Below, one piece after another: positions 11,902 through 60,245 of a stretch of DNA of 64,000 bases. Made by a program: the position numbers and the translations under genes. Source of the DNA: a virus; the IMG/VR virus record IMGVR_UViG_3300037427_002598, positions 5,120 to 69,119 of that record. One strand, written 5' to 3'. The stretch's first letter is position 1; every line of letters begins with the position of its first letter. The notes under the pieces were generated by a model. It was not told where the DNA came from. It saw only the letters and a program-made list of their open reading frames with translations, and did no database searches.

Positions 11902-14046
11902 ATGGCTTTAACCAAAATATCAACCGATACTATAGATCTTAGCGCGGATACAAATGCGTTAAAGATGCCTAAAGGTACTACAGCTGAAAGACAAATAGAA
12001 TATTTAGTTGTTGCTGGTGGTGGCGGAGGTGCTGGTAATTCTTCTGGTGGCGGAGGTGGTGGTGCCGGTGGTTTACTAAGTGGAACTACAGATATGATTG
12101 CCACTACAAATTTAACTATAACTGTAGGAACTGGAGGGGCAGGTACAATTGGTGAAGGAAGTACCGATGTTGGAGGTAATGGGACTGATTCTGTTTTTGA
12201 CAATATAACAGCTACAGGAGGTGGGGGTGCTGGAAATACAGGTGCTGGAAATAGTGCTAATGGTGGATCTGGCGGTGGTGCTTCAGGAGGAACTGCTGTT
12301 ACCCCTGGAAATGGTATTCCCCCACAAGGAAATAATGGAGGTACAGGTTCTGATCCAAGTGATATTGGTGGTGGTGGCGGAGGCGCCGGAGGAGTTGGTC
12401 AACCAGGTGGTAGTTTAGGATCTATTCCATCAAGTGGAACATTTACTGGAACTGATGGTCAAGGTGGCGCTGCTTTATCTAATAGTATAACTGGAACCGC
12501 AGTATTATATGCTGGTGGAGGTGGTGGTGGTGTTTGTGATTTTGTTTATAATGTTGGTACTCCTGCTACTACTGGTCTTGGAGGTGCTGGAGTTGCTGGA
12601 ACTGGAGGAAATGGTGGTCAAAGTGATGGGTCTACTACAGCTGCTGTTAATGGGGGTAATGGAACTGCTAACACTGGAGGTGGTGGTGGTGGTGGTTCAA
12701 GAAGTGCTAGTGGATCATGTAATGGAGGTGATGGAGGTTCTGGTATAGTTATTTTAAGATATGCATCTAAGTATACTTTAGTTGCCAGTGCAGGATTAAC
12801 AACTGGAGTTTTAAATGGAACTGTTGGAGATGATAAATATACAACTTTTACTGCAGGAACGGGAACAATTAGTGGCCTTAATTTGGATATTGCTATAGGT
12901 ACTATGAGAGAAAATACTACAACCGGTAACATGGAAATATATACTGGCGCTAAAGGTTGGAGAGCTTTACAACAAACTGGGCAAGATGCAGGTGTGGTAG
13001 CATCAAATGGTTTTGGTACAGCATTATATACTGGAAATGGAGGAGCAGATAATATAAATTTAAATTTTCAACCCGATTTAATTTGGATAAAAGGTAGAGA
13101 TACAAACGGAAAATTTAATGCTGTATATGATTCTGTAAGAGGTGCTACAAATATGATTTCAACTAACTCAACAGATTATGGTAGTTGGAATCCTTATGGA
13201 AGTGTAACGCCTACTGCTAGCGGTTTTGAAATAGGTTCAGCTTCTGCTGGTGATGTAAATGCTAGTGGAGAAGAATATGTTTCGTGGTCATGGAAAGCTG
13301 GTGGAAATTCTAATACTTTTAATATAGATGGTGTAGGTTATGCAACAGCTGCTGCAGCAGGAATGAATGCAGGTAGTATTTCACCTAATGCATGTTCAGT
13401 TAGCACAGAGTATGGGTTTTCTATTACTAAGTATGACTCTGGAATTTGTGGTACATCAAATCCTCCCTGTTTTAATTGGTCTCATGGTTTAAATCAAGAA
13501 CCTGATTTTGTAACAAATAAAATGCTTAATTATAGTTATGGATGGGATAGTATATTTAAACCAGCAGGTTATAGTGGAGGTTCAAATACCGGTGGTTGGC
13601 AATATCTTCAATTAAATACCACCGCAGCAATGGCTTCTAGTCCTCATTACTCCGCAGATAGTACATTAATATATGAAACTATGAGTTCTGGTGCTAGTTA
13701 TCCTTTAGTTACATATGCTTGGCATTCAGTTCCAGGTTATTCACTAATAGGAAGTTATACTGGAACAGGTAGTGCTACTGACTCACCGAAAATTTATACA
13801 GGCTTTGAACCGGCATGGTTAATGACAAAACCGGTTTCTACAACTGGATGGTGGTATATATTTGATAATAAAAGAAGTACGAACAATCCAAGAGATATAA
13901 TATTAGGTGCTAATTCATCTGATTCAGAATATACTAGTTCTAATTATGATGTTAATTTTTATAACGATGGTTTTCAATATAGAAATAGTACTATATGTTG
14001 TAATGATGCTGGGGTTGAATATTTATTCATGTGTTTTGCATCTTAA
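11902..14046 (+). CDS. Fibre/receptor-binding protein with glycine-rich domain and C-terminal YTGNG/FQPDLIWIK repeat domain
   Basis: MALTK start; IEYLVVAGGGGG...GGSGIVILRY glycine-rich domain; C-terminal FQPDLIWIKGR and FEPAWLMTK repeats common in marine phage fibres. Confidence 0.8.
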   Translation: MALTKISTDTIDLSADTNALKMPKGTTAERQIEYLVVAGGGGGAGNSSGGGGGGAGGLLSGTTDMIATTNLTITVGTGGAGTIGEGSTDVGGNGTDSVFDNITATGGGGAGNTGAGNSANGGSGGGASGGTAVTPGNGIPPQGNNGGTGSDPSDIGGGGGGAGGVGQPGGSLGSIPSSGTFTGTDGQGGAALSNSITGTAVLYAGGGGGGVCDFVYNVGTPATTGLGGAGVAGTGGNGGQSDGSTTAAVNGGNGTANTGGGGGGGSRSASGSCNGGDGGSGIVILRYASKYTLVASAGLTTGVLNGTVGDDKYTTFTAGTGTISGLNLDIAIGTMRENTTTGNMEIYTGAKGWRALQQTGQDAGVVASNGFGTALYTGNGGADNINLNFQPDLIWIKGRDTNGKFNAVYDSVRGATNMISTNSTDYGSWNPYGSVTPTASGFEIGSASAGDVNASGEEYVSWSWKAGGNSNTFNIDGVGYATAAAAGMNAGSISPNACSVSTEYGFSITKYDSGICGTSNPPCFNWSHGLNQEPDFVTNKMLNYSYGWDSIFKPAGYSGGSNTGGWQYLQLNTTAAMASSPHYSADSTLIYETMSSGASYPLVTYAWHSVPGYSLIGSYTGTGSATDSPKIYTGFEPAWLMTKPVSTTGWWYIFDNKRSTNNPRDIILGANSSDSEYTSSNYDVNFYNDGFQYRNSTICCNDAGVEYLFMCFAS

Positions 14047-14056
14047 ATAATAAAAT

Positions 14057-16606
14057 ATGGCGATAACAAAAGTAATTAACGATCTTGCCGATTTAAATCA
14101 ATTAGGTTCTACCAACGCTTTAAAAGGATGTGCTGGTACAACTGCTCAGCAACCAGTAGTTTCTTCATCTATTGAATATGTAATCGTTGGAGGAGGCGGT
14201 GGAGGTGGTACTAATGGTTCAGCTACCGGTGATGGTCTTGGTGGTGGTGGTGCTGGGGGTTATGTTACGGGTACAACTACAGTTTATCATGGAACACCTA
14301 CTGTTCTTACCGTAGGAGATGGTGGTAACGGTGGTACAACAACTAATGGTTATGATGGAATAAACGGTGATGATTCCGGGTTTAATGGTATTAGAGCTAT
14401 CGGTGGCGGTGGCGGTGGTGCTGGAACAGGGTTTGGTATAGATGGAGGTTCTGGTGGTGGAGGTGGAAGAAATGGCGGTGCTGCAGGAAGTTCTTTAAAT
14501 AGTCAAGGAAATGCTGGTGGAACTGGCGGAACTGGAAGTACATATTATAATTCTACTGGTGCTGGTGGTGGTGGTAGTGGTGAACCATTCTTAGACACTA
14601 ATGGAACGGGTGGTAACGGAGCAAATAGTCCCTCAGGTAATGGTGGATCTGGAGGTTCTGGTACAAATATAAATGGATTTATAGATTATACTAATGCAAC
14701 CACAGCAGGTATAGGGGATATATCGGGAACTGATGTATATATTTCTGGTGGTGGCGGTGGTGGTGCTTATAGTGGTACTAAAGGAACTGGAGGAGATGGC
14801 GGTGGCGGTGCTGGTGGTCAATCAGGAACTACTGCTACAAGTGGAAGTGATAATACTGGTGGTGGCGGTGGTGGAGATGGTAATGCTGAATCGCTTGGTG
14901 GAGGTGGAGGATCTGGTGTTGTAATTTTACAATATGATAATAACGAAGTAACTGGATATACAATTACAGGGTCATTAGTTGGAGGTGTAAATACCGCGGA
15001 TAATTCTGCTGTCGTAGATTTTCCCGCAGGAGCAGGATGCCAAGCTTTATATCAATTTGAGAATAATACAAATGATTCAAGTAGTAATAGCTATAATCCA
15101 ACTTCTGAGGCTAATACAAGTTTTCCAACATCATCTCCTGCTCCAAAATTTGGTACTTATTCTTTATCTCTTAATGGTTCAACTACTTATGTTAATGGCA
15201 TTCCCTCAGGATTAACGACTAAAATAAGGACAGCTGGACAATTTAGTATTTCTGTCTGGATAAATCCAAAAACTAGACCATCGGGAAGTGGATATTCTGG
15301 AGGAGATAACTTTATTAAGCTTCTAGATGATATTTATCTATCAATTTTTCTTGATAAAGAGTTAACATTAAATTATTCGGTAATTCCTAGTCCAGGCGTA
15401 TATATTGAATCTCCACAAACTACGTCTGTAAGAAGAATTAATTTAAATGAATGGTCTCATATATGTCTTACAGGAAGTGCTACTAATGGTATAAAGTTTT
15501 ATATAAACGGACAACAAGAAACATATAATCCTTCTTGGCCTGGAACATTTATTACTTATACTGATAGTAACTATAAAACTAACGGTCTTACGGCTAATTA
15601 TCCTAGTTTGCCAGGAAATCCTACTAAAGTATTAGATGGTAATTTAGATAATCTTAGAGTTTATGATAATGAACTAACAGCTTCACAAGTGTTAGAACTT
15701 ACTAACACTAATTTAACAACTAAATTTGTAGACAGTCCAACTGTTGGTACTGATACATTAGTATTTAAAGGAGGAACAGGAAATATATCCTTTGAAAATA
15801 GTGGACCTCCAGGAGGAGAAATAGGTATGTTAAGGTACAATAGTACTTTAGGTCAAATGGAACATTTTAATTCCGGTGGTTGGAAAGATTTTACTGATTG
15901 CACAACTTCTGTATGTAATTATCCTACTACAGCTCGATGTTTATACACATTTGACGGAAATATTATAGATTCGTGTGGAAATACAACACCTGATCTTATT
16001 CAAAATATTTATTATAATTCCACAGGAAAATTTGATCAACGAGGATGGACTGCACTTGGAACATCCAGTTCTTTAGGTTATAGTAAACTTGGTTGGTCTT
16101 CCGGATTAGGAGTTAATTATAATACTTCAGATTTTAGTATTTCTTTATGGTTAAAACAAGATTCTTATGCAAGTTATAGTGCGTGTAGTAGTAATCCTTT
16201 ATGTTATGGATATATATGGTCAGGATGGTCAAATTCATATTGGACATTAGCTACAGATCACCAACTCGCAGGTAATACAATAGCATGGAAAAGTTGGGGA
16301 CCTGGAGCAGGACAAATTCAAACAGCTGAAAGTGGAATAGTAGATTTAAATACGTGGTATCATATTGTAGCTACAAGAAGTACAACAGATGGTATCCAAT
16401 TATGGTTAAATAATCAACTAGTTGCTAGTGTAAGTGGATCATTTACCGCAGGAACAGCGTCGGTTTATGATATGATGGGAGGGTATGGAGATACAGGTTA
16501 TACTAGACAAGGATTGAATGGGTCGATTAGTCAATTTAGACTTTTTGAATCTGTATTAACTTCAACTCAGATATCACAATTATATAATGAAATTTCATGT
16601 CCTTAA
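14057..16606 (+). CDS. Fibre/receptor-binding protein with glycine-rich domain and two LamG/ConA-like domains
   Basis: Gly-rich domain, FSISVWINP...WSHICLT...FYING...GNLDNLRVYD and a second WYHIVAT...GSISQFRLF LamG signature. Confidence 0.82.
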   Translation: MAITKVINDLADLNQLGSTNALKGCAGTTAQQPVVSSSIEYVIVGGGGGGGTNGSATGDGLGGGGAGGYVTGTTTVYHGTPTVLTVGDGGNGGTTTNGYDGINGDDSGFNGIRAIGGGGGGAGTGFGIDGGSGGGGGRNGGAAGSSLNSQGNAGGTGGTGSTYYNSTGAGGGGSGEPFLDTNGTGGNGANSPSGNGGSGGSGTNINGFIDYTNATTAGIGDISGTDVYISGGGGGGAYSGTKGTGGDGGGGAGGQSGTTATSGSDNTGGGGGGDGNAESLGGGGGSGVVILQYDNNEVTGYTITGSLVGGVNTADNSAVVDFPAGAGCQALYQFENNTNDSSSNSYNPTSEANTSFPTSSPAPKFGTYSLSLNGSTTYVNGIPSGLTTKIRTAGQFSISVWINPKTRPSGSGYSGGDNFIKLLDDIYLSIFLDKELTLNYSVIPSPGVYIESPQTTSVRRINLNEWSHICLTGSATNGIKFYINGQQETYNPSWPGTFITYTDSNYKTNGLTANYPSLPGNPTKVLDGNLDNLRVYDNELTASQVLELTNTNLTTKFVDSPTVGTDTLVFKGGTGNISFENSGPPGGEIGMLRYNSTLGQMEHFNSGGWKDFTDCTTSVCNYPTTARCLYTFDGNIIDSCGNTTPDLIQNIYYNSTGKFDQRGWTALGTSSSLGYSKLGWSSGLGVNYNTSDFSISLWLKQDSYASYSACSSNPLCYGYIWSGWSNSYWTLATDHQLAGNTIAWKSWGPGAGQIQTAESGIVDLNTWYHIVATRSTTDGIQLWLNNQLVASVSGSFTAGTASVYDMMGGYGDTGYTRQGLNGSISQFRLFESVLTSTQISQLYNEISCP

Positions 16607-23888: not shown

Positions 23889-24308
23889 ATGAGTAAAAAA
23901 AAAGCCTTTAAAGATACAGGTGTAGGTAAATTTCTTATTGAAAAAGCACCTAATATCTTAGGTATTGTTGGAGATGCAATATTACCAGGTAACGTTATTT
24001 CAGAATTAATAACAGGTAATAAAGATTTATCTACTGAAGATAAAGAAGTTGCTTTACAAAAACTAACAATAGAAAGGGCTGAAATTGATGGAACAACAAG
24101 GCGGTGGGTCGCGGATGCTCGTTCAGGGGCGTGGCTTGCTGCTAATGTTCGTCCATTAACTTTAATATTTTTAACAATTAGTTACGTAGTAGGATGGTAT
24201 TTACACTATCCACTTGACTCTATAACTGGACTTCTTTCTATAGTAATAGGAGGTTATTTTGGTTCTCGTGGAGTTGAAAAAGTATTCGGAAACAATAAAC
24301 ATAAATAA
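23889..24308 (+). CDS. Holin (GTA 3TM-holin-like)
   Basis: RWVAD...WLAANVRPLTL followed by TM helices and GGYFGSRGVEK. Confidence 0.75.
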   Translation: MSKKKAFKDTGVGKFLIEKAPNILGIVGDAILPGNVISELITGNKDLSTEDKEVALQKLTIERAEIDGTTRRWVADARSGAWLAANVRPLTLIFLTISYVVGWYLHYPLDSITGLLSIVIGGYFGSRGVEKVFGNNKHK

Positions 24309-25322: not shown

Positions 25323-25542
25323 CATTATAAGAAAAATCAGTGTTGGACCTGATTATAAAAATGATGCTATGCACTATGCCGTAGGGCAACAAGTGTATGG
25401 TGGTCATACTATTTCTCATATTTTAAATAATGAAGAAGAACAATCTTATAATATTTTTATTAAAAAAGATAATGAAGTTTTGCCTTGGAAAAAATTTAAT
25501 TCTAATATGGCTATTTCAGTAGAATATGATTTAGAATATTAA
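25315..25542 (+). CDS. Hypothetical protein
   Basis: 75 aa with GTG start overlapping the upstream gene; IIRKISVGPDYKNDAMHY. Confidence 0.65.
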   Translation: MSNIIRKISVGPDYKNDAMHYAVGQQVYGGHTISHILNNEEEQSYNIFIKKDNEVLPWKKFNSNMAISVEYDLEY

Positions 25543-26147
25543 TGAATAGTATTTATCAATTTATTATAAAACCTATTGGTGAAAGATATAAAAATAAAAT
25601 AAACATAGAAGGAAAAGAACTTTTAGTAAATACTAGTATATCTAATCATAAATTTATAAATAGAGAAGCTGAAGTAATAAGTATTCCACTTAATTATAAA
25701 GGTAATATAATAAAAGGAGATAAAGTTATAGTTCATCATAATTTATTTAGAAGATATTATAATGTAAAAGGTAAATCAGTAAATAGTAGTAAGTATTTTA
25801 AAGATGAATTATATTTTGCTATACCTTCTCAAATATATTTATATAATAAAAATAATGAATGGTGCACACATGAAAATTTTTGTTTTGTTAAACCAATTAT
25901 AAAAAATAGTAAGTTTAAGAAAGAAAAATTACAAAAGCATAAAGGAATACTAAAATTTGGTAATAATACCTTAGAGGCACTTCAAATTACTCCTGGGGAT
26001 GTAGTAGGGTTTAAACCCAATAGAGAGTTTGAGTTTATTATAAATAATGAACTTTTATATTGTATGGAATCTAATGATATTGTAATTAAATATGAACACG
26101 AAACAAACCAAGAAGAGTATAATCCAAGCTGGGCAAAAAGCTGTTGA
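25542..26147 (+). CDS. Tandem GroES-like domain protein
   Basis: Two repeats of a GroES-like pattern: FIIKP...EVISIP...IIKGDKVIV and FCFVKP...GILKFG...ITPGDVVGF...LYCMESNDIV. Confidence 0.6.
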   Translation: MNSIYQFIIKPIGERYKNKINIEGKELLVNTSISNHKFINREAEVISIPLNYKGNIIKGDKVIVHHNLFRRYYNVKGKSVNSSKYFKDELYFAIPSQIYLYNKNNEWCTHENFCFVKPIIKNSKFKKEKLQKHKGILKFGNNTLEALQITPGDVVGFKPNREFEFIINNELLYCMESNDIVIKYEHETNQEEYNPSWAKSC

Positions 26148-26364
26148 AGAATTAATTAAAGTAGCTAAAGAAAAAATAGTTGATTCAGAAGATGATGTTT
26201 CAGCTGATAGATTAAAAAATGCTGCAGCTACAAAAAAATTAGCTATTTTTGATGCTTTTGAGATTTTAACACGTATAGAAGAGGAAGAAAATATGTTAAA
26301 AGAAATAAAAGATGAAAACCGCGGAAATAATTTTAAAGGTTTTGCAGAAGGTAGATCAAAATGA
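26092..26364 (+). CDS. Putative terminase small subunit
   Basis: 90-aa helical protein directly upstream of and coupled to terL. Confidence 0.55.
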   Translation: MNTKQTKKSIIQAGQKAVEELIKVAKEKIVDSEDDVSADRLKNAAATKKLAIFDAFEILTRIEEEENMLKEIKDENRGNNFKGFAEGRSK

Positions 26365-28586
26365 TATATAATCAAACTTTATTTAAAGTATTACCTAACT
26401 ATATTAGGTCAAGTATAATAAAAAGAAACAATAGATATAAAAAGTGGAAATATGGGTACGATCAAGAACATGATATCGTGGTTATTAGTAAAACTGGGAA
26501 AATTGGTGAAATATATCAAATACAAAATCTCACAATTGCTTTACCATTAGAAGAAAATACATACAAAAGATCTAAAAAGAAAGATGAACAATATTGGGAA
26601 GTATTTGAATATCCTAAAATATTATCAAAACTAAAAACAGTTTTTGATTGGAATAATACTTCTCTAGATTTTAAAAACAAATGGTATGATTATATTGATG
26701 AAGAATTTAAAAGACGTGAAGAAGGTTTTTGGTTTTATAACCAAGGCAGTAGCACTTATCTTACTGGTTCTCATTATATGTACTTGCAGTGGACCAAGAT
26801 TGATGTTGGGAAACCAGACTTTCGAGAGTCCAATAGACTTTTCTTTATTTTTTGGGAAGCGTGTAAAGCCGATAACCGGTGTTACGGAATGTGCTACCTT
26901 AAGAACCGTAGATCTGGATTTTCTTTCATGGCATCCTCAGAATTGGTACACCAAGCCACTATATCCTCGGATTCACGATATGGAATATTATCTAAAACTG
27001 GAGCTGATGCGAAGAAAATGTTTACTGACAAAGTGGTACCAATATCAGTTAACTATCCCTTCTTTTTCAAACCAATCCAGGACGGTATGGATCGCCCCAA
27101 GACGGAACTCGCGTATAGAGTCCCTGCCTCGAAACTTACCAGAAAAAAGTTGGACCAGAATAGTCAAATCGAAGACATCCAGGGGTTGGATACAACCATC
27201 GATTGGAAGAACACGGGGGACAACTCCTACGATGGGGAGAAGTTACAAGTCCTTGCCCACGACGAATCAGGGAAATGGGAGAGGCCGGATAATATCCTCA
27301 ACAACTGGAGAGTCACGAAAACGACGTTAAGATTAGGAAGTAGAATAGTAGGAAAATGTATGATGGGTTCTACTTCAAACGCTTTAGATAAAGGAGGAGA
27401 TAATTTTAAAAAATTATATGAAGCTTCAGACGTTACAAAACGAAACCGCAACGGACAGACTAATTCAGGACTTTATAATTTGTTCATTCCTATGGAATGG
27501 AACTACGAAGGATACATTGATTCTTATGGCGTACCTGTCTTCGAAACTCCAAAAAAAGCGGTTAAAAGTATTGATGGATCCCAAATTAACATCGGAGTTA
27601 TCTCACATTGGGAAAATGAAGTAGAAGGTTTAAAAACTGATCAAGATAGTTTAAATGAATTTTATAGACAATTTCCCAGAACTGAAAAACATGCCTTTAG
27701 AGATGAGGCTAAACAGTCTCTTTTTAATCTTACTAAAATATACGAGCAGATAGATTATAATGAAGATTTAAAACACTCTAATGTTTTAACACGTGGAGGT
27801 TTTCAATGGGAAAATGCAATAAAAGATACTAGAGTTGTTTTTGTACCTCATAAAACTGGGAGATTTTTAGTTAGTTGGGTTCCTCCTGCCCGTTTACAAA
27901 ATAGATATATAATAAAAAATGGAATACGGTTTCCTGGTAATCCGGACTGTGGGGCTTTTGGTTGTGATCCATACGATATTTCAGGAACAGTAGATGGAAG
28001 AGGTTCAAAAGGATCTTTGCATGGTTTAAGTAAATTTACTATGGAAGACATTCCTCCTAATATGTTTTTTTTAGAATACATTGCACGACCTCAAACTGCA
28101 GAAATATTTTTTGAAGATGTGTTAATGGCTTTAGTTTTTTATGGAATGCCATTACTTGCAGAAAATAATAAACCAAGATTATTATATTATTTAAAACGTA
28201 GAGGATATCGGGGATATTCTATGAATAGACCAGATAGAATTTATAATAAATTATCTGTTGCGGAAAGAGAAATAGGTGGTATACCTAATTCAAGTGAAGA
28301 TATAAAACAAGCTCACGCCGCTGCTATAGAAGATTATATAGAAAATTATATAGGATATACAGAAGATAGATATGGTGATATGTATTTTCAGAAAACTTTA
28401 GAAGATTGGGCAAGTTTTAATATTAATAACAGAACTAAGCATGATGCGGCAATAAGTTCAGGTTTAGCAATTATGGCTTGTAATAAAAACAGATATACAC
28501 CAGTAGTGAATAGAACAATAACACAAGTTCCTTTAGGTTTTAAAAAATACGATAATAAAGGGGTAAATTCAAAAATTCTAAAATAG
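26361..28586 (+). CDS. terL: Terminase large subunit
   Basis: Walker A-like KNRRSGFS, Walker B LAHDESGK, coupling motif MMGST, nuclease GCDP and ENN motifs. Confidence 0.92.
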   Translation: MIYNQTLFKVLPNYIRSSIIKRNNRYKKWKYGYDQEHDIVVISKTGKIGEIYQIQNLTIALPLEENTYKRSKKKDEQYWEVFEYPKILSKLKTVFDWNNTSLDFKNKWYDYIDEEFKRREEGFWFYNQGSSTYLTGSHYMYLQWTKIDVGKPDFRESNRLFFIFWEACKADNRCYGMCYLKNRRSGFSFMASSELVHQATISSDSRYGILSKTGADAKKMFTDKVVPISVNYPFFFKPIQDGMDRPKTELAYRVPASKLTRKKLDQNSQIEDIQGLDTTIDWKNTGDNSYDGEKLQVLAHDESGKWERPDNILNNWRVTKTTLRLGSRIVGKCMMGSTSNALDKGGDNFKKLYEASDVTKRNRNGQTNSGLYNLFIPMEWNYEGYIDSYGVPVFETPKKAVKSIDGSQINIGVISHWENEVEGLKTDQDSLNEFYRQFPRTEKHAFRDEAKQSLFNLTKIYEQIDYNEDLKHSNVLTRGGFQWENAIKDTRVVFVPHKTGRFLVSWVPPARLQNRYIIKNGIRFPGNPDCGAFGCDPYDISGTVDGRGSKGSLHGLSKFTMEDIPPNMFFLEYIARPQTAEIFFEDVLMALVFYGMPLLAENNKPRLLYYLKRRGYRGYSMNRPDRIYNKLSVAEREIGGIPNSSEDIKQAHAAAIEDYIENYIGYTEDRYGDMYFQKTLEDWASFNINNRTKHDAAISSGLAIMACNKNRYTPVVNRTITQVPLGFKKYDNKGVNSKILK
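26686..27330 (+). CDS. Putative overprinted (+1 frame) membrane/lipoprotein inside terL
   Basis: 214 stop-free codons in the +1 frame; local GC rise ends exactly at its stop; basic N-terminus, hydrophobic core and Cys. Confidence 0.5.
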   Translation: MIILMKNLKDVKKVFGFITKAVALILLVLIICTCSGPRLMLGNQTFESPIDFSLFFGKRVKPITGVTECATLRTVDLDFLSWHPQNWYTKPLYPRIHDMEYYLKLELMRRKCLLTKWYQYQLTIPSFSNQSRTVWIAPRRNSRIESLPRNLPEKSWTRIVKSKTSRGWIQPSIGRTRGTTPTMGRSYKSLPTTNQGNGRGRIISSTTGESRKRR

Positions 28587-30980
28587 ATGGTTAAGATTAA
28601 CTACAATAGTGCTTTCCCAGATCAGGTGGTACCTGAAGAAGAGAAAAAATCTAAAGAATATGGTTTACAAGTAGCACAAGCCATTGAAGGAGAGTGGTTT
28701 AAAAATTCAAGTGGCAGAAATAGATTTATTAATAATTTTCAAAATTTTAATAGATTAAGATTATATGCTCGTGGAGAACAACCTGTTCAAAAATACAAAG
28801 ATGAATTAGCTATAAATGGTGATTTATCATATTTAAATTTAGATTGGAAACCCGTACCTATTCTTTCTAAATTTGTAGATATAGTAGTTAATGGTATGAC
28901 TGATAAAGGTTATAAAGTTAACTCCTTTGCAACAGACCCTTTTGCAATGAAACAAAGAACACATTACGCATCAACTGCATTAAGAGATATTCAAAGTAAA
29001 GCTGAAATAGATGCCTTAGCTCAAGCCACTGGTCGTAATTTTTATTCTTCTCCAAATCCACAGTCATTACCAGACAACCCAGAGGAATTAGATCTTTATA
29101 TGCAATTAGATTATAAACAGAGTGTAGAAATTGCAGAAGAAGAGGTTATAAATAATGTATTAGATTTTAATAAATACGAAGAAACAAAAAAAAGAATAGC
29201 CTACGATTTAACTGTTTTAGGTATTGGATGTGTAAAAACTAATTTTAATTTAGCAGAAGGAATTACAGTAGATTATGTAGATCCAGCTAATATAGTTTAT
29301 TCATATACAGATGATCCAAACTTTGAAGATATTTATTATGTAGGGGAAGTAAAAAATATGTCATTATCCGAAGTTAAAAGACAGTTTCCTTACTTAACAG
29401 ATAGTGATTTAGAAGAAATACAAAAATATCCAGGAAGAAATTCATATGTAAATAACACTTGGTGGGGACAAGAAGCACAAGATCAAGTTCAAGTTTTGTT
29501 TTTTGAATATAAAACATATCAAAATCAAGTATTTAAAATAAAAGAAACTGATCAAGGATTACAAAAAACTTTAGAAAAACCCGATACTTTCAATCCTCCT
29601 GAAAATGATAATTTTGAAAGAGTAAGTAGAGCAATAGAAGTATTATATAGTGGGGCTAAAGTTTTAGGATTGGGAGGAAATTTATTGCAATGGGAATTAA
29701 GTGCTAATATGACTAGGCCGTTTAGCGATACTACAAAAGTTAATATGAATTATGCAATAAGTTCTCCTAGAATGTATCAAGGAAGAATTGAATCTATTGT
29801 AAGTAAGTGTGTTGGATTTGCTGATATGATACAATTAACACATTTAAAATTACAACAAGTACTTGCTAGATTAGTACCAGATGGAGTTTATTTAGATGTA
29901 GATGGTTTAGCAGAAGTAGATCTTGGAAATGGAACTAATTATAATCCAGCTGAAGCATTAAACATGTATTTTCAAACTGGTAGTATAGTAGGAAGATCTT
30001 TAACACAAGATGGGGAATTAAACAGAGGTAAAGTACCTGTACAAGAGCTACAAAGTTCATCTGGAATTTCTAAGATACAATCGATGATCCAAACATATCA
30101 ATATTATCTACAAATGATTAGAGATGTTACGGGACTAAACGAAGCTAGAGATGGTAGCACTCCGGCAAAAGACTCTTTGGTAGGTCTTCAAAAACTTGCT
30201 GCCGCTAATTCAAATACAGCAACAAAACACGTTCTTCAGTCTCTTATGTATCTAACTGTTCGTGCGTGTGAGAATATAGCATTAAGAGTATCTGATATGT
30301 TGCAGTTTCCTTTAACAAAGAATAGTTTATTAAACAGCATTAACACATTTAATGTTAACACTTTAAAGGAACTAGAACATTTGCACTTGCATGATTTTGG
30401 TATATTTTTAGAATTAGAACCAGAAGAAGAAGAAAAAGCTGAATTAGAAAAAACAATTCAAATAGCTTTACAAGCAGGTAATATAGGATTAGAAGATGCA
30501 ATAGATATAAGAGAAATTCAAAACATCAAACTTGCTAATCAACTTTTAAAAAATAGACAAAAGAAAAAACAAGAAGCAGAAAGAGCTGCTCAACTAGAGA
30601 ATATTGAAGCACAAGCCGCTGCAAATGCAGAGGCCGCTGAAAAGGCAGCTTTATCTGACGTACAAAAACAACAAGCAATTGCACAAACTGAAGTACAAAT
30701 AGAACAAGCAAAGTCGCAATTTGAAATTGAAAGGATGGAGCAAGAGGCAATTATAAAGAAACAATTAATGGCAGAAGAATTTAATTATGATATGCAATTA
30801 GCTCAAATTCAGGCTCAATCACAACAACAAAAAGAAGCTGCTATAGAAGATCGTAAAGATAAACGAATAAAAATACAAGGTACACAACAAAGTGAACTTA
30901 TAGATCAACGTCAAAATGATTTATTACCTAAAGATTTTGAATCTACTGGTAGTGATAGTTTAGTGGGTTTTGGATTATAA
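28587..30980 (+). CDS. Portal protein
   Basis: 797 aa directly after terL; PVPILSKFVDIVVNG, IRDVTGLNEARDG and Q/E-rich C-terminal barrel, as in crAss-like portals. Confidence 0.88.
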   Translation: MVKINYNSAFPDQVVPEEEKKSKEYGLQVAQAIEGEWFKNSSGRNRFINNFQNFNRLRLYARGEQPVQKYKDELAINGDLSYLNLDWKPVPILSKFVDIVVNGMTDKGYKVNSFATDPFAMKQRTHYASTALRDIQSKAEIDALAQATGRNFYSSPNPQSLPDNPEELDLYMQLDYKQSVEIAEEEVINNVLDFNKYEETKKRIAYDLTVLGIGCVKTNFNLAEGITVDYVDPANIVYSYTDDPNFEDIYYVGEVKNMSLSEVKRQFPYLTDSDLEEIQKYPGRNSYVNNTWWGQEAQDQVQVLFFEYKTYQNQVFKIKETDQGLQKTLEKPDTFNPPENDNFERVSRAIEVLYSGAKVLGLGGNLLQWELSANMTRPFSDTTKVNMNYAISSPRMYQGRIESIVSKCVGFADMIQLTHLKLQQVLARLVPDGVYLDVDGLAEVDLGNGTNYNPAEALNMYFQTGSIVGRSLTQDGELNRGKVPVQELQSSSGISKIQSMIQTYQYYLQMIRDVTGLNEARDGSTPAKDSLVGLQKLAAANSNTATKHVLQSLMYLTVRACENIALRVSDMLQFPLTKNSLLNSINTFNVNTLKELEHLHLHDFGIFLELEPEEEEKAELEKTIQIALQAGNIGLEDAIDIREIQNIKLANQLLKNRQKKKQEAERAAQLENIEAQAAANAEAAEKAALSDVQKQQAIAQTEVQIEQAKSQFEIERMEQEAIIKKQLMAEEFNYDMQLAQIQAQSQQQKEAAIEDRKDKRIKIQGTQQSELIDQRQNDLLPKDFESTGSDSLVGFGL

Positions 30981-55986: not shown

Positions 55987-56124
55987 ATGGGATATTCACA
56001 AACTAATTCACCTTTTGCTAAGAAAAAAACATCTTGTTGGAAAGGTTATAGTAATATAGTTAAAGGTAAAAAAACTTATAAAAAGAAAGGTGGAAAAATG
56101 GTTCCCGACTGTAAACCTATATAA
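55987..56124 (+). CDS. 45-aa basic protein, SPF tag plus CWKGY...VPxC module
   Basis: Manual translation MGYSQTNSPFAKKKTSCWKGYSNIVKGKKTYKKKGGKMVPDCKPI. Confidence 0.7.
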   Translation: MGYSQTNSPFAKKKTSCWKGYSNIVKGKKTYKKKGGKMVPDCKPI

Positions 56125-56125
56125 A

Positions 56126-56479
56126 ATGCAATACTTTAACATTACCGAGTTTGATTCACCCGATGAAATGGGTAGCGGACGAAATATGAATGTGGAAATG
56201 CTAGACAAAATAGATCTAGTACGATCTAAGTTTGACAGAGCAATCCATATAAACAGTGGTTATCGAACTAAAGAACATAATAAAAAGGTTGGAGGAAAAA
56301 AGAATTCCTCTCATCTTAAAGGTTTAGCAGTTGATATCCATTGTATAAACTCTAGAGAAAGATATGATCTTATAAACTGTTTATTAGATGTAGGATTTAC
56401 TCGCATAGGAATTGCAGATACATTTATTCATGTGGACATGGATCCTGATAAAGATCCTGATGTAATATGGACATATTAA
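56126..56479 (+). CDS. Endolysin, peptidase M15A family
   Basis: YF...EF, INSGYRT..HN..VGG...SSHLKG.AVDI, FIHVD; likely start at MQYF. Confidence 0.88.
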   Translation: MQYFNITEFDSPDEMGSGRNMNVEMLDKIDLVRSKFDRAIHINSGYRTKEHNKKVGGKKNSSHLKGLAVDIHCINSRERYDLINCLLDVGFTRIGIADTFIHVDMDPDKDPDVIWTY

Positions 56480-56712: not shown

Positions 56713-58461
56713 TTATCCATCGCAACTTAAGCAATCCGGGTCCATTGCGTTCGCTGCTATATCTCCCCGTAATACAGACTCAGTCCGCATATAATATAAA
56801 GTTTTAATCCCTCTTTTCCAAGCTTCAATATGTACTTGATTAATCCATCTAGGTATTGCTTCAGAGGGAAAAGCTAAATTTAAACTTACTGATTGATCTA
56901 TATAATCAGTTCTAATTCCTGCTTGGTTTATTAATTCTAATTGATTTATTTCTTTAAATGTTTTAAATACATTTTTAATAGGTTCATGATCTTGCGATTC
57001 TTGGGTTACTCTTCCTAAATGATCATAATAATATCCTTCTAGTTCTTTTAAATCTTGAACCGATCCTTCATCTTTTAAAATTTTATCCCATATATCTTTA
57101 TTATCTAATTTAAGTTTTCTTAAAATTTTTTGCAATTCTTTATTTTTTCTAATAAAAGTTCCTTTAGCTGATTGATCTGTAAAAACATTTGCTGCCCAAG
57201 GTTCAATTCCAGGTGATACATTTCCAGCTAATTTGCTATTTGATACGGTGGGTGCTATCGCTCTTAAATGTGTATTTCGCATTCCAGTACCTACACACCA
57301 TAAAGGTTCACCATATGTCTCCGCAAGAGCTCTAGAGGCTCTTTCTGTCTCTATTTTAATCTTAGAAAATATTTCTCTTGTTTTAAATTGTGCCAATAGC
57401 CCTTCAAAAGCAATTCCATTTTTTTGTAACAAACTATGCCATCCTAAGACTCCTAATCCTAGTGCTCTTCCTTTTACTGCAGATCTTACAGAATTATCAA
57501 ATCCTTTCATATTTTTAGCCCGTTGTATAAACTCTTCTAATACACCATCTAAAAACCATGTTGCATCATAAATTAAATTAGAATTTTTCCATTCATCATA
57601 TTTATCTAAATTAACTGAAGATAAACAACATACAAAGCTATGAGACTCATCTGTATGTAATACTATTTCACTACAGATATTTGTCATATAAACTTTTAAG
57701 CTGTTCGACTTATAAGCATCTGGGTTAGCTTTGTTTGTATTTCCTTTAAAGAGAATATACGGCTCTCCAGTAGCTTTACGTTTTTGGAGGAGTTTTCCCC
57801 ATCTTTGTCTAGCTTCTGGATCTCCAGCTTCGAGTTTTCGCATAAACTTATCACCAACGACAGCACACTGATGTAGGTTAAGAGATTGCCTATTGACGTC
57901 CCCTTTAGGTTCTCTAATTTCCAGCCAGTCATAGAAATCAGGGTGTTCGATATTAATATTAACGGATGCAGCCCCTCTACGTACTGATCCTTGATTGGTT
58001 GCGAGTATAGTCGAGTCATAGACTTTGCAAAAAGGGACAACTCCATCTGATGTTCCATTACCTGTTATTTTAGCGCCGGCAGGACGAATCATATTAACTC
58101 CGATACCTACTCCCCCGCCGTGTTTAGCAAGTAACATCATTTCTAAATTTTTATTTCCTATATCCATTATACTATCGGCTACATCTATACCAAAACAACT
58201 TATAGGTAATCCTCTATCAGTGCCGGTATTGGATAAAACAGGGGATGCTAAGCATAGCCATCCTTTCCAAATATAATCAAAAAATTTATTTGCCAATTCT
58301 GGTTTAAATAATCTTTTAGCAACAGTTTTAGATACTCTTTTATAAGCTTCCTTAGGGGTTTCACCATTAAATAAATAGCCACCACTAATAGTTTTTTTAT
58401 AAACATCAGTATCTCCCCAAGAAGGGTAATCTTTACCTTTTATCCAATCATTATTCCACAT
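56713..58461 (-). CDS. nrdA: Ribonucleotide reductase class I alpha subunit (no ATP cone)
   Basis: LPISCF, GGVG, NQGSVRRGA, TNICSEI, CCLSS, APTVSNS, DQSVSLN, KTLYY and C-terminal CxxC (CLSC). Confidence 0.95.
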   Translation of the reverse strand: MWNNDWIKGKDYPSWGDTDVYKKTISGGYLFNGETPKEAYKRVSKTVAKRLFKPELANKFFDYIWKGWLCLASPVLSNTGTDRGLPISCFGIDVADSIMDIGNKNLEMMLLAKHGGGVGIGVNMIRPAGAKITGNGTSDGVVPFCKVYDSTILATNQGSVRRGAASVNINIEHPDFYDWLEIREPKGDVNRQSLNLHQCAVVGDKFMRKLEAGDPEARQRWGKLLQKRKATGEPYILFKGNTNKANPDAYKSNSLKVYMTNICSEIVLHTDESHSFVCCLSSVNLDKYDEWKNSNLIYDATWFLDGVLEEFIQRAKNMKGFDNSVRSAVKGRALGLGVLGWHSLLQKNGIAFEGLLAQFKTREIFSKIKIETERASRALAETYGEPLWCVGTGMRNTHLRAIAPTVSNSKLAGNVSPGIEPWAANVFTDQSAKGTFIRKNKELQKILRKLKLDNKDIWDKILKDEGSVQDLKELEGYYYDHLGRVTQESQDHEPIKNVFKTFKEINQLELINQAGIRTDYIDQSVSLNLAFPSEAIPRWINQVHIEAWKRGIKTLYYMRTESVLRGDIAANAMDPDCLSCDG

Positions 58462-59276: not shown

Positions 59277-60245
59277 CTACCAAATATCTTCAAAATCCTC
59301 TCCTTCATTTGCTTTGGAATAATCAGTCGGACGAATAGCAAAAAAATCAGTATGAGTATGGCCCCCGGTAAGATGGTAGAACCAATCAAGATTTTTTGCT
59401 GCTTCTTTGTCAAACTCAAAGTATTCCCGTTTGTCTGCGTAACCAAGTTCAATGATTTTTTCATTAAGTCTTTTTCGTATAAAGTGTTTAAGGTCGTAAG
59501 CTTTAAGGTTTTCGATGTCTCCCAGTTCAAACATTTTATTAATGTAGTTTTCTTCGGCTTTAAGCATTGTTTCTGCTGCATCTAATATATCTTTTTTAGA
59601 TTTATTTAATAATTGCGGATCTTCTTGACACATATGTCTAAAAAGTTGACAACCCATTTTAGAATGTAATGATTCATCTCTTACACTCCATTTCATTTGT
59701 TGTCCTACTCCTTTTAAAAGATTTCTGAGTTGAAAACTATATAAAACAGCAAAGGCAGAATAAAGACTAACACCTTCAGCAAAGGCACTAAAGATAGCAA
59801 GGCTTCTTGCAATTCCAGTGGGGTTATTTCCATCATAACTAATTAAATTATCAAAGCGCTCCATTGTTGCCTTGTCTTGTAAGAACGCTTCAAAATTTTC
59901 CAAGCCAAGAGTTTCATTTAAATAAGAATAAGCTACAGCATGGATAGTTTCTTGTGATCCAAATATCATAGCCATTTGTTGTATTTCATGTTTAGGAAAC
60001 CATGATACAACTTTTTGTGTCCAGTAATCTGATACTGCACATTCTGTCTGAGCAAAACCTAGTAAGATATTACCTACTAGGTTCTTTTCTTTTTTTGTTA
60101 ATATTTCGTTCCAATCTTTAACATCACTTGACATTGGTATTTCAGTATGTAACCAAAACGCTTGAGCTTGTTTAAGCCATCCATCGTTATAATATTCGGG
60201 ATATTCAAAAGGTTTGTATGGTATTCTTTCGTCAAATAATCCCAT
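59277..60245 (-). CDS. nrdB: Ribonucleotide reductase class I beta subunit
   Basis: FWLHTEI, ETIHAVAY, EGVSLYSAF, RDESLH di-metal ligands. Confidence 0.95.
   Translation of the reverse strand: MGLFDERIPYKPFEYPEYYNDGWLKQAQAFWLHTEIPMSSDVKDWNEILTKKEKNLVGNILLGFAQTECAVSDYWTQKVVSWFPKHEIQQMAMIFGSQETIHAVAYSYLNETLGLENFEAFLQDKATMERFDNLISYDGNNPTGIARSLAIFSAFAEGVSLYSAFAVLYSFQLRNLLKGVGQQMKWSVRDESLHSKMGCQLFRHMCQEDPQLLNKSKKDILDAAETMLKAEENYINKMFELGDIENLKAYDLKHFIRKRLNEKIIELGYADKREYFEFDKEAAKNLDWFYHLTGGHTHTDFFAIRPTDYSKANEGEDFEDIW

What the first reader, a model, noticed from the sequence alone, without database searches (positions are those of the whole stretch)
26686..27330. Overprinted 214-aa ORF hidden in the terminase ATPase domain
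Seen: the +1 frame stays open for 214 codons in a genome where TTA/ATA/GTA codons normally close that frame quickly. Here terL switches to CTC/ATC/GTC and other C/G-ending codons, most clearly at 27060-27330, and reverts to AT-rich usage right after the +1 stop. The product has a basic N-terminus, hydrophobic core plus Cys (LILLVLIICTC), a W/Y-rich middle and an R/S/T/G-rich tail. Inference: a real nested membrane or lipoprotein gene, possibly a lysis accessory or superinfection-exclusion protein. Caveat: +1 frames of T-ending codons are hydrophobic by default.
Basis: partly seen in the sequence, partly recalled or inferred. Interest (0 to 1): 0.72.

Follow-up and report, generated by a model that had tools for sequence, protein, structure and literature searches.

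The report
Hidden membrane-protein gene inside phage terminase
A second, out-of-frame gene for a small membrane-anchored protein lies hidden inside the DNA-packaging (terminase) gene of a group of marine phages, and its relatives show such a gene being kept, varying in length and being lost.

Summary
ORF 26686-27330 (214 aa, +1 frame of terL 26361-28586) sits in a 220-codon stop-free run, the longest off-frame run in the window. It coincides with the strongest GC3 anomaly in the window (up to 0.70, against a mean of 0.14).

The comparative evidence points to a real overprinted gene:
- Among 81 TerL genes (74-88% aa identity, synonymous sites near saturation), 57 have no +1 stop in a fixed 136-codon core. 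The other 24 have 1-7.
- In a sister clade (60-65% identity) 0 of 80 are open, although its GC3 there averages 0.44.
- Only the +1 frame is depleted of stops.
- A hydrophobic helix is kept by T-ending terL codons (one Thr codon is ACT in 57 of 57).
- The composition shift follows each lineage's own ORF end.
- Site-specific synonymous constraint is limited to the first ~60 codons.

The product looks like a single-pass membrane protein with a basic, disordered, fast-evolving tail. No canonical lipobox is present. No family or fold was found, and no free-standing copy in the DNA fetched. Parsimony gives about 12 changes of state, mostly losses, so the gene is accessory. Its function (lysis accessory or exclusion) is untested, and translation has not been shown directly.

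The parts
26361..28586 (+). terL (terminase large subunit, 741 aa), the older host gene
   Evidence: Matches phrog_6681 at E 1.8e-162 over residues 30-738. A portal gene follows at 28587. 160 homologues were fetched.
26686..27330 (+). Overprinted +1-frame gene (214 codons plus TAA). It overlaps TerL residues 109-324.
   Evidence: ORF listed. Stop-free in 57 of 81 homologues over the fixed core. 86 gene-caller-predicted relatives and 158 representatives at 50% identity.
26665..26667 (+). Last upstream +1-frame stop (TAG), which bounds the open run
   Evidence: In relatives the open run begins anywhere from alignment column 57 to 116, so nothing upstream of the ATG is conserved as open frame.
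26686..26700 (+). Candidate start codons: ATG 26686-26688 (from TerL Tyr-Asp, TAT GAT) and ATG 26698-26700 (from TerL Asp-Glu, GAT GAA)
   Evidence: The first ATG lies at or before alignment column 115 in 55 of 57 ORF-bearing sequences, mostly at column 110 or 114/115, and at column 129 in 2 of 57. The same ATGs occur in many ORF-lacking relatives, so they are a by-product of TerL residues and AT-rich codons.
26728..26787 (+). Hydrophobic helix (ORF residues 15-34), the predicted transmembrane anchor, ending in the C-T-C-S-G motif (26779-26793)
   Evidence: Third positions over alignment columns 130-140 are A 0.02 and T 0.73 in ORF-bearing sequences, against A 0.34 and T 0.50 in ORF-lacking ones. 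Thr column 136 is ACT in 57 of 57. Hydropathy is 2.44 against a null of 1.21. AlphaFold2 places a helix at residues 2-35, the only part with pLDDT 55-72.
26715..26894 (+). Stretch with site-specific synonymous constraint in terL that is specific to ORF-bearing lineages (alignment columns 120-179)
   Evidence: Excess codon identity is 0.223 in ORF-bearing and 0.022 in ORF-lacking sequences. 0 of 1000 label permutations reach this difference, with the stop-bearing columns removed.
27106..27327 (+). Basic, S/T/G/P/R-rich tail (ORF residues 141-214), predicted disordered. It holds the GC3 peak of terL.
   Evidence: Composition. pLDDT is 34-40 with no secondary structure. GC3 is 0.57-0.73. No site-specific constraint. 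Length varies by lineage, with ORF ends at columns 251-334.
27328..27330 (+). Stop codon TAA of the nested gene, made by TerL Leu-Arg (TTA AGA)
   Evidence: The same position is a stop in all sequences shown, followed by further stops.

Best explanation
This is a genuine overprinted gene. A newer protein-coding frame was laid over the 5' third of terL, across its Walker A- and Walker B-like motifs, in a clade of marine, probably Flavobacteriia-infecting, podophage-like viruses.

Shown by sequence comparison:
- The +1 frame is kept free of stops.
- An N-terminal hydrophobic helix is kept by terL's synonymous codon choices.
- terL's third positions are pushed from A/T towards C/G exactly as far as each lineage's ORF runs.

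Inferred:
- Ribosomes start inside the late terL mRNA at AUG 26686 (or 26698). A Shine-Dalgarno sequence is not expected, because Bacteroidota do not use one.
- The product is a 214-aa single-pass membrane protein. It has a short basic N-terminus in the cytoplasm, a helix at residues 15-34, a conserved juxtamembrane C-T-C-S-G segment, and a basic, disordered, fast-evolving tail of about 75 residues at the end of the roughly 180 residues outside the membrane.
- The shift to C/G is the cost of making a stop-free, non-hydrophobic tail from an AT-rich gene. T at terL position 3 gives Leu/Phe/Ile/Val in the +1 frame, and A gives stops or charged residues.

The gene is accessory: parsimony gives about 12 changes of state, mostly losses. 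My best guess for its role is an envelope function late in infection. I put a lysis accessory that helps breach the outer layers (spanin- or disruptin-like) at about 0.3, superinfection exclusion or receptor masking at about 0.25, and something else for the rest.
For: 1. Conservation of the open frame.
- 57 of 81 TerL genes (74-88% aa identity) have 0 stops in the +1 frame over alignment columns 115-250. The other 24 have 1-7, so the distribution is bimodal.
- Shuffling each sequence's own codons predicts a mean of 2.86 stops, with a median P(0) of 0.007. ORF-lacking sequences match their own shuffles.
- The 57 fall into 23 clusters at a synonymous-codon difference below 0.30.

2. Natural control. 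0 of 80 sister-clade genes (60-65% identity) are open. They carry 2-10 stops, although GC3 in the patch averages 0.44. MW202828 and a Flavobacterium elemo phage also lack the ORF.

3. Frame specificity. The observed-to-expected stop ratio is 0 for the +1 frame and 1.00-1.10 for the other four alternative frames.

4. Protein-level signal.
- Over the helix, third positions are A 0.02 and T 0.73, against A 0.34 and T 0.50 in ORF-lacking relatives.
- Thr column 136 is ACT in 57 of 57. Columns 140-144 use TAC, TAC, TTG/CTG and CAG against the AT bias, which gives T-C-T-C-S.
- Hydropathy is 2.44 against a null of 1.21. ORF-lacking sequences give 1.29 against 1.22.

5. Composition tracks the ORF end. 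In columns 251-332, long-ORF lineages have C3 0.36 and G3 0.19. Short-ORF lineages have 0.11 and 0.09, close to ORF-lacking ones (0.09 and 0.06).

6. Synonymous constraint specific to ORF-bearing lineages in columns 120-179: 0.223 against 0.022, reached by 0 of 1000 permutations.

7. Restricted distribution with an older host gene. The outgroup-rooted tree puts one gain at the base of the clade.

8. AlphaFold2 gives an N-terminal helix and otherwise coil.
Against: - There is no direct evidence of transcription start, translation or protein. The public runs that hold the sequence are contigs only, and an RNA library may contain DNA.
- Two thirds of the ORF (columns 180-332) show no site-specific synonymous constraint. 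Columns 180-250 are even less constrained than in ORF-lacking relatives, 0.084 against 0.143.
- Given its own composition, the tail's openness alone is weak evidence: 0.96 stops expected, P(0) 0.32 per sequence.
- Among the closest pairs, synonymous divergence in the core is not consistently lower than in the flanks. Ratios run from 0.3 to 2.0.
- The AlphaFold2 model is poor: pLDDT 42, pTM 0.16.
- No family, fold or protein-atlas relative was found.
- 2 of 57 ORF-bearing sequences have no ATG before the helix.
- The start codons and upstream context are equally present in ORF-lacking relatives.
- The ORF-bearing group is defined by having no stops, so part of the contrast between groups is built in.
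- The sequences are related, and the trees are FastTree trees with moderate support.
- Only the best 80 of at least 600 matching stretches were examined in each of the two scans.
Confidence: 0.8

Rival explanations
1. The open frame is a by-product of a GC-richer patch, either a recombined segment from a GC-richer relative or local biased conversion. Nothing is translated from it.
For: The ORF coincides with the GC3-rich patch, and it ends where AT-rich usage resumes. Any GC-rich patch would produce that coincidence. Given its own composition, the tail is open with P about 0.32. ORF-bearing and ORF-lacking sequences are interspersed on both trees, which could reflect exchange of the patch between lineages.
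Against: - Sister-clade genes with the same or higher GC3 (mean 0.44, up to 0.67) have 2-10 stops in the core, and 0 of 80 are open.
- Shuffles that keep the patch's own usage still predict 2.9-5.9 stops.
- Over the helix the shift is towards T and away from A, not towards G/C.
- The state is held in 23 clusters near synonymous saturation, against an AT-biased background.
- blastn of the patch against the 50,697 phage records found only one distant match at 67.5% identity, so no GC-rich donor is visible in that collection.
Confidence: 0.04
2. The patch is a nucleotide-level element, such as a structured RNA, a packaging signal or a binding-site array. Its composition happens to leave the +1 frame open.
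For: terL does carry at least one stretch of strong synonymous conservation of unknown cause, at 27411-27536, shared by all lineages. Nucleotide-level constraints therefore do occur in this gene.
Against: - The patch RNA folds less well than its shuffles (-149.8 against a mean of -161.7 kcal/mol, z +2.04, all 20 shuffles fold at least as well).
- Only one of five alternative frames is depleted of stops.
- Most of the patch has no site-specific conservation, which an RNA or DNA signal would need.
- The conserved part spells a hydrophobic helix in the +1 frame.
- Element length varies between lineages in step with the ORF end.
Confidence: 0.04
3. The +1 frame is read not from its own start but by ribosomes that shift out of the terL frame. 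That would give an alternative TerL N-terminus fused to the +1 tail, or a frame kept open to tolerate slippage.
For: The start codons are by-products of TerL residues and are not specific to ORF-bearing lineages. In some lineages the open run reaches far upstream, to columns 57-64.
Against: - 21% of ORF-bearing sequences have a +1 stop at column 113, directly before the Met at column 114/115. The window has one 7 codons before its ATG. Any shift would therefore have to occur in about 12 codons before the helix.
- I saw no conserved slippery motif there in the aligned sequences (inspection only, no formal search).
- A basic segment followed by a hydrophobic helix at the very start of the ORF is the layout of an independent membrane protein.
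Confidence: 0.05
4. It was a real gene, but it is now decaying or nearly neutral in the window's own lineage.
For: Parsimony suggests about ten losses. Two relatives, L034 and L058, carry a single stop while GC3 is still 0.36, so they look like fresh losses. Most of the protein is unconstrained site by site.
Against: The window's copy is intact, with the start, helix and full-length tail, and it has the highest GC3 of the genome. That composition would decay under the genome's AT bias. Its nearest relatives, L001-L004, all keep a 220-265-codon open run. Near-identical contigs recur in 4 of 4 runs laid, dated 2016-2025, with 0-2 differences in the long pieces.
Confidence: 0.05

Closest known systems
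Lambda Rz1 (o-spanin) embedded in Rz
   Same: It is wholly embedded in the +1 frame of a larger phage gene and targeted to the cell envelope by an N-terminal hydrophobic segment followed by Cys. Gene callers usually miss it: Kongari et al. 2018 (PMC6139136, passages read) found 196 o-spanin genes with no annotated CDS and describe 182 embedded spanin systems.
   Different: The host gene is terL, not an i-spanin. The product is 214 aa rather than the roughly 60 aa I recall for Rz1. The canonical lipobox is absent in 0 of 57. The tail is basic and S/T/G/R-rich. No partner gene was identified.
phiX174 lysis protein E, embedded in gene D (features recalled, not read here)
   Same: An overprinted +1 gene inside an essential morphogenesis gene. 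It has an N-terminal transmembrane helix that carries the conserved information, followed by a basic and poorly constrained C-terminal part.
   Different: E belongs to a 5-kb ssDNA phage that has no holin or endolysin. This 69-kb dsDNA phage has a holin-like and an endolysin-like gene. There is no sequence similarity, and no family hit of any kind.
Class III holin T of T4 (features recalled)
   Same: Similar size (about 218 aa) and layout: a short cytoplasmic N-terminus, one transmembrane helix and a large C-terminal part outside the membrane.
   Different: T has a folded periplasmic domain. Here the C-terminal part is predicted disordered and varies in length from 146 to 266 codons. The window already has a holin-like gene, phrog_3427.
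Small phage exclusion proteins anchored in the envelope (T5 Llp, Cor, lactococcal Sie; recalled)
   Same: Small, accessory, envelope-anchored, fast-evolving, and often gained and lost.
   Different: Those are free-standing genes, usually expressed early or from a prophage. This gene lies inside a late gene. No similarity was found.
Overprinted genes of viruses in general (Pavesi 2021 review PMC8227390; Willis and Masel preprint 10.1101/229690; search listing and abstract starts only)
   Same: The newer frame has a narrower distribution than the host gene, an unusual composition and high predicted disorder.
   Different: Most documented cases come from small RNA or ssDNA viruses. A 645-nt fully embedded gene in the hallmark terL gene of a large tailed phage did not turn up in my searches.

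Membership tests
Overprinted (de novo) overlapping protein-coding gene | A long ORF in an alternative frame of an established gene, longer than chance allows | tested here: met
   220 stop-free codons. 18 of 20,000 own-usage shuffles and 0 of 20,000 background-usage resamplings do as well. It is the longest off-frame run among 46 ORFs.
Overprinted (de novo) overlapping protein-coding gene | The open frame is conserved in diverged homologues beyond what composition explains | tested here: met
   57 of 81 have 0 stops in the fixed core, against 2.86 expected. 0 of 80 are open in the sister clade with matched GC3. Only the +1 frame is depleted.
Overprinted (de novo) overlapping protein-coding gene | Narrower phylogenetic distribution than the host gene, so the newer frame can be identified | tested here: met
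   Absent from the 60-65% clade (0 of 80) and from the relatives at 62% and 44% identity. The rooted tree places the gain at the base of the 74-88% clade. No free-standing copy in 822,109 bases of loci.
Overprinted (de novo) overlapping protein-coding gene | Reduced synonymous variability of the host gene across the overlap | tested here: inconclusive
   Met for columns 120-179 (0.223 against 0.022, 0 of 1000 permutations). Not met for columns 180-332. Ratios for close pairs are scattered, 0.3-2.0.
Overprinted (de novo) overlapping protein-coding gene | Evidence of translation (ribosome footprints, peptides) | not testable with these tools
   Only assembled contigs of public runs could be laid. 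They show that the DNA or RNA is present, not its start, strand or translation.
Bacterial lipoprotein / o-spanin | Lipobox [LVI][ASTVI][GAS]C at the end of the signal peptide (consensus as quoted in PMC6139136) | tested here: not met
   0 of 57 loci. The tetrapeptides before the Cys are LITC 29, LTTC 12, LIIC 7 and LTIC 6. 1 of 68 database relatives matches, at residue 61. TerL's residues allow only Thr or Ile at position -1, and ORF-bearing lineages prefer Thr (0.77 against 0.41).
i-spanin (Rz-like) | An N-terminal transmembrane helix plus a periplasmic coiled-coil domain and a partner o-spanin gene | tested here: not met
   The helix is present. The rest is predicted coil apart from one weak helix at residues 99-117. 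No partner gene was identified, and no dedicated search for one was made.
Holin families in PHROGs and Pfam | A match to a holin profile | tested here: not met
   0 families for the ORF. 0 holin families among the 68 relatives scanned. A separate gene, 23889-24308, matches the holin family phrog_3427 at E 4.7e-12.
Single-pass (bitopic) membrane protein | One hydrophobic stretch of about 17-20 residues, with flanking charges that set the orientation | tested here: met
   The best 17-residue Kyte-Doolittle mean is 2.44 across the 57 (minimum 1.74). AlphaFold2 gives a helix at residues 2-35. The N-terminal flank has 5 Lys and 1 Asp, read from the sequence. No dedicated topology predictor was available.

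The most novel reading that the evidence does not exclude
A protein-coding gene was born de novo inside the terminase gene of tailed phages, and the family records several of its states. The frame is closed in the sister clade. The earliest-branching ingroup lineage carries a form of about 150-185 codons. Other lineages carry forms of 200-266 codons, whose added tail is paid for by recoding terL's third positions to C/G. About ten decayed copies have returned fully to background composition. In this reading the product is a new kind of envelope-active phage protein: a membrane-anchored cationic disordered tail that helps breach the Bacteroidota outer layers at lysis, or blocks superinfection. 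That would fill the gap left by the lack of recognisable spanins in these phages.
Probability: 0.25. Interest if true: 0.85.

Novelty: new member of a known kind. Interest (0 to 1): 0.72.

Why it matters
terL is the hallmark gene of tailed phages. It is used as a phylogenetic marker and is generally assumed to encode one protein. A 645-nt gene hidden in its ATPase-coding part has several consequences.

1. Annotation pipelines that forbid embedded genes miss real phage proteins.
2. terL trees and codon-usage or GC3-based inferences for this clade are distorted by a second layer of selection.
3. The family offers a replicated natural series for studying how overprinted genes arise, vary in length and die. 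It covers a closed frame, a short form, a long form and about ten losses, and it shows what such a gene costs its host gene.
4. Phages of marine Flavobacteriia lack recognisable spanins, so an envelope-targeted accessory protein made late in infection is a concrete candidate to test.

Silent knockouts are possible because the start codon can be removed without changing TerL.

Tried and rejected
- Promoter or start context. I aligned the 90 nt around the start in all sequences. It is equally conserved in ORF-bearing and ORF-lacking lineages because TerL fixes it, so it neither supports nor argues against an internal promoter. I make no promoter claim.
- Family, fold and atlas searches for the product. 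Pfam and PHROGs on the ORF gave 0 families. On 68 relatives the only hits were chance or chimeric: Mucin 1, PAP2_3 1, and the terL PHROG 1. The ESM Atlas gave no usable hit. AlphaFold2 gave pLDDT 42, so I ran no fold search.
- PDB sequence search with TerL, meant to place the ATPase domain: 0 hits at E up to 1.
- Pairwise synonymous divergence of close pairs. The result is noisy and confounded by the different codon bias of patch and flanks, so I did not use it as support.
- RNA structure of the patch and of the second conserved stretch: z +2.04 and +0.03, so no support for structure.
- Free-standing copies. tblastn of the 57 +1 products against 164 sources (822,109 bases) found hits only inside terL.
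- Public runs. 20 of 24 listed rows hold the stretch, from 15 studies, all labelled marine or seawater metagenome. 6 are on record as RNA. I laid four of them. All are contigs, so they say nothing about transcript ends, strand or expression. Coverage in the oligo-dT RNA library X2 may be DNA carry-over.
- The high GC at 12-15 kb was checked as a possible second patch. It comes from Gly-rich protein sequence, not from GC3.
- Literature. Five searches listed nothing about a gene embedded in terL. That covers only the held open-access library. Supplementary tables of PMC6139136 could not be seen and might list odd spanin locations.
- Rows dropped. L034 and L058, which have exactly 1 core stop, were left out of both groups. 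They were counted as ORF-lacking in the parsimony counts. Only 10 of the 80 sister-clade sequences were used as outgroup.


Full report
WHAT IS THERE

The window is bases 5120-69119 of a 69,119-bp IMG/VR virus record. Its relatives in the phage collection are podophages of Flavobacterium, Cellulophaga, Tenacibaculum and Maribacter. All but one of the 87 matching records lie below 60% TerL identity, with the listed elemo phages at 44%. An uncultured phage, MW202828, lies at 62%.

terL is 26361-28586 (phrog_6681, E 1.8e-162) and is followed by the portal gene. It lies in a 220-codon stop-free run, whereas the rest of terL has a +1 stop about every 12 codons. It is the longest off-frame sense run among 46 ORFs of the window. 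The next longest are 122 and 101 codons.

The codon switch is real and extreme. GC3 is 0.33-0.73 across 26721-27350 and 0.13 in the next 30 codons. The 12 GC3-richest of 1721 forty-codon windows in the whole window all lie here.

Shuffling synonymous codons within the patch still predicts 5.9 stops. 18 of 20,000 shuffles do as well as the real sequence.

RELATIVES

A scan of viral contigs gave 80 terL loci at 74-88% TerL identity. These are the best 80 of at least 600 matching stretches. I built a codon alignment of the 81 genes.

In a fixed core (alignment columns 115-250, 136 codons), the number of +1 stops is bimodal. It is 0 in 57 sequences and 1-7 in 24. Each of the 57 would be expected to carry 2.86 stops under its own local codon usage, with a median P(0) of 0.007. 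The ORF-lacking sequences match their own shuffles.

Synonymous sites are close to saturation between most pairs. The 57 fall into 23 clusters at a synonymous-codon difference below 0.30. Only the +1 frame is depleted of stops. The other four alternative frames have observed-to-expected ratios of 1.00-1.10.

THE CONTROL THAT DECIDES AGAINST 'JUST A GC-RICH PATCH'

A second scan, seeded with the TerL of MW202828, gave 80 genes of a sister clade at 60-65% identity to the window's TerL. Their GC3 over the homologous stretch averages 0.44 (range 0.20-0.67), the same as or higher than in the ORF-bearing genes. Yet 0 of 80 are open. They have 2-10 stops in the core, and their longest +1 run anywhere in terL is 35-110 codons. 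MW202828 itself and a Flavobacterium elemo phage are also closed.

PROTEIN-LEVEL SIGNALS IN THE +1 FRAME

Over the hydrophobic segment (columns 130-140), ORF-bearing genes have third positions A 0.02 and T 0.73. ORF-lacking genes have A 0.34 and T 0.50. This is a shift towards T, not towards G/C.
- T at terL position 3 is the middle base of the +1 codon and gives Leu/Ile/Val/Phe.
- One four-fold Thr codon (column 136) is ACT in 57 of 57, against ACA 0.55 in ORF-lacking genes.
- Columns 132, 133 and 138 are NCT in 0.82-0.96.
- Columns 140-144 use TAC, TAC, TTG/CTG and CAG against the genome's AT bias. This spells T-C-T-C-S after the helix.

The best 17-residue hydropathy is 2.44 in the 57, against 1.21 for the same TerL residues recoded with flank usage. 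ORF-lacking genes give 1.29 against 1.22.

Downstream of the helix the shift reverses: T and A fall, and C and G rise. The shift also stops where each lineage's ORF stops. In columns 251-332, long-ORF lineages have C3 0.36 and G3 0.19. Short-ORF lineages have 0.11 and 0.09, close to ORF-lacking ones (0.09 and 0.06).

Site-specific synonymous constraint specific to ORF-bearing lineages is confined to columns 120-179 (window 26715-26894). There it is 0.223 against 0.022, and 0 of 1000 label permutations reach the difference even with stop-bearing columns removed. The rest of the ORF shows none. Given its own composition, the tail's openness is only weakly surprising per sequence, with P(0) 0.32.

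The picture is therefore a conserved membrane anchor plus a tail that is selected for composition and openness, not for sequence.

THE PRODUCT

The window's protein has these parts:
- a basic N-terminus;
- the helix FGFITKAVALILLVLIICTC at residues 15-34 (26728-26787);
- a middle part;
- a tail (residues 141-214) that is 61% S/T/G/P/R, with 17 K+R and 3 D+E.

AlphaFold2, run with 68 sequences, gives pLDDT 42. It predicts a helix at residues 2-35, a weak helix at 99-117 and coil elsewhere.

No Pfam or PHROG family matches the product, and the protein atlas gave no usable hit. Gene callers have nevertheless called this ORF often: 86 clusters at E down to 6.6e-121 and 158 representatives at 50% identity. 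No copy outside terL exists in the 822,109 bases I hold.

The canonical lipobox is absent in 0 of 57. TerL's conserved His-Tyr-Met-Tyr allows only Thr or Ile before the Cys, and ORF-bearing lineages choose Thr. A divergent subgroup in the database (P0055, P0061, P0068) has its hydrophobic stretch further upstream, ending in I-G-S-C. That is only a near miss to the consensus.

I therefore read the product as a signal-anchored single-pass membrane protein. Lipidation is unproven.

HISTORY

ORF-bearing and ORF-lacking genes are interspersed both on the tree of TerL outside the patch and on the tree of the patch. Parsimony gives 10-11 changes.

With 10 sister-clade genes as outgroup, parsimony gives 12 steps and an ORF-bearing root for the clade. 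The first-branching subclade (16 genes, support 0.987) has only short ORFs, ending at columns 250-289. ORFs that end at columns 300-334 occur only in the other subclade. Elongation and truncation cannot yet be told apart.

Two genes with a single stop and GC3 still at 0.36 look like fresh losses. After older losses the composition is back at background. This shows that the anomaly is held by selection.

HOW IT PROBABLY WORKS

Shown: selection for an open +1 frame, for a hydrophobic N-terminal helix, and for a non-hydrophobic tail.

Inferred: internal initiation on the late terL mRNA at AUG 26686 or 26698. Bacteroidota start translation without Shine-Dalgarno pairing, tuned by mRNA structure and nearby bases (PMC6847099; only the start of the abstract was seen). 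The patch RNA is less structured than its shuffles.

The window also encodes a holin-like protein (23889-24308, phrog_3427, E 4.7e-12) and an endolysin-like peptidase (56090-56479, phrog_894, E 2e-28). No spanin was recognised among the proteins I scanned. In a survey of 677 phage genomes, 91 had no spanin, and embedded o-spanins were mostly unannotated (PMC6139136, passages read).

A membrane-anchored cationic tail made late in infection could help break the outer layers, or could mask receptors or exclude superinfection. I rank these at about 0.3 and 0.25. Neither was tested.

RIVALS

- A recombined or GC-biased patch is excluded.
- An RNA or DNA element is unsupported.
- Access by frameshifting is unlikely, because +1 stops sit directly before the start in many lineages.
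- Decay in the window's own lineage is unlikely.

LIMITS

- There is no expression or translation evidence. Public runs are contigs only.
- The ORF-bearing group is defined by its lack of stops.
- The trees are approximate.
- Each scan kept only the 80 best loci.

VERDICT

The nested gene is very probably real (0.8) and encodes a single-pass membrane protein with a disordered basic tail. Its function is open. It is a new member of a known kind, the overprinted phage genes, in an unexpected host gene.

Noticed in passing
window 27411-27536 (terL alignment columns ~360-401): Very strong synonymous-site conservation, shared by ORF-bearing and ORF-lacking lineages. Excess codon identity is +0.56 and +0.45 at columns 380-399. 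Examples: Pro CCT 81/81, Phe TTC 77/81, Tyr TAC 79/81, Gly GGA 72/81. The +1 frame is open there in 78 of 81 (runs of 43-86 codons; the window ORF 27418-27624 is 68 aa), but there is no conserved start codon. RNA folding gives z 0.03. The cause is unknown. It could be accuracy-driven codon choice at a catalytic motif, a DNA-level signal or a second small ORF.
   Followed up: partly
window 23889-24308 and 56090-56479: A holin-like gene (phrog_3427, E 4.7e-12) lies 2 kb upstream of terL. The endolysin-like peptidase (phrog_894, E 2e-28) is 32 kb away. There is no compact lysis cassette, and no spanin was recognised among the proteins scanned.
   Followed up: partly
window 25542-26147 and 26092-26364: A GroES-like co-chaperonin gene (phrog_13932, E 9.5e-26) lies just upstream of terL, as it does in the Flavobacterium elemo phage. 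A 90-aa ORF with no family overlaps its 3' end by 56 nt and overlaps terL's start by 4 nt. By position it might be the small terminase subunit.
   Followed up: no
window 12202-13101 (ORF 11902-14046) and about 14000-15000 (ORF 14057-16606): The peaks of GC (0.44-0.45) and G-skew (0.41-0.42) come from Gly-rich, low-complexity protein sequence (checked by translating 12202-13101), probably fibre-like. GC3 there is only 0.12-0.13. No tandem DNA repeat was found.
   Followed up: yes
proteins P0055, P0061, P0068 (database relatives of the nested ORF, 236 aa): In this divergent subgroup the usual helix position is polar. A hydrophobic stretch lies further upstream and ends in I-G-S-C. It looks as if the membrane-targeting segment moved while the feature itself was kept. 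Their DNA context could not be seen.
   Followed up: no
L034 and L058 (terL loci): Each has a single +1 stop in the core while patch GC3 is still about 0.36. They look like recent inactivations of the nested gene.
   Followed up: partly
window 56713-58461 (-) and 59277-60245 (-): The ribonucleotide reductase genes hold the next-longest +1 open runs of the window (122 and 101 codons), with mildly raised GC3 (0.33-0.40 in places). I did not examine them in relatives.
   Followed up: no
window 26361-28586 in public runs X2, X4, X7, X10: Near-identical contigs (0-2 differences in the long pieces) occur in all four runs laid, dated 2016 to 2025. One of them is an oligo-dT RNA library. 20 rows from 15 studies hold the stretch. 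The genotype appears widespread and stable in seawater samples.
   Followed up: partly
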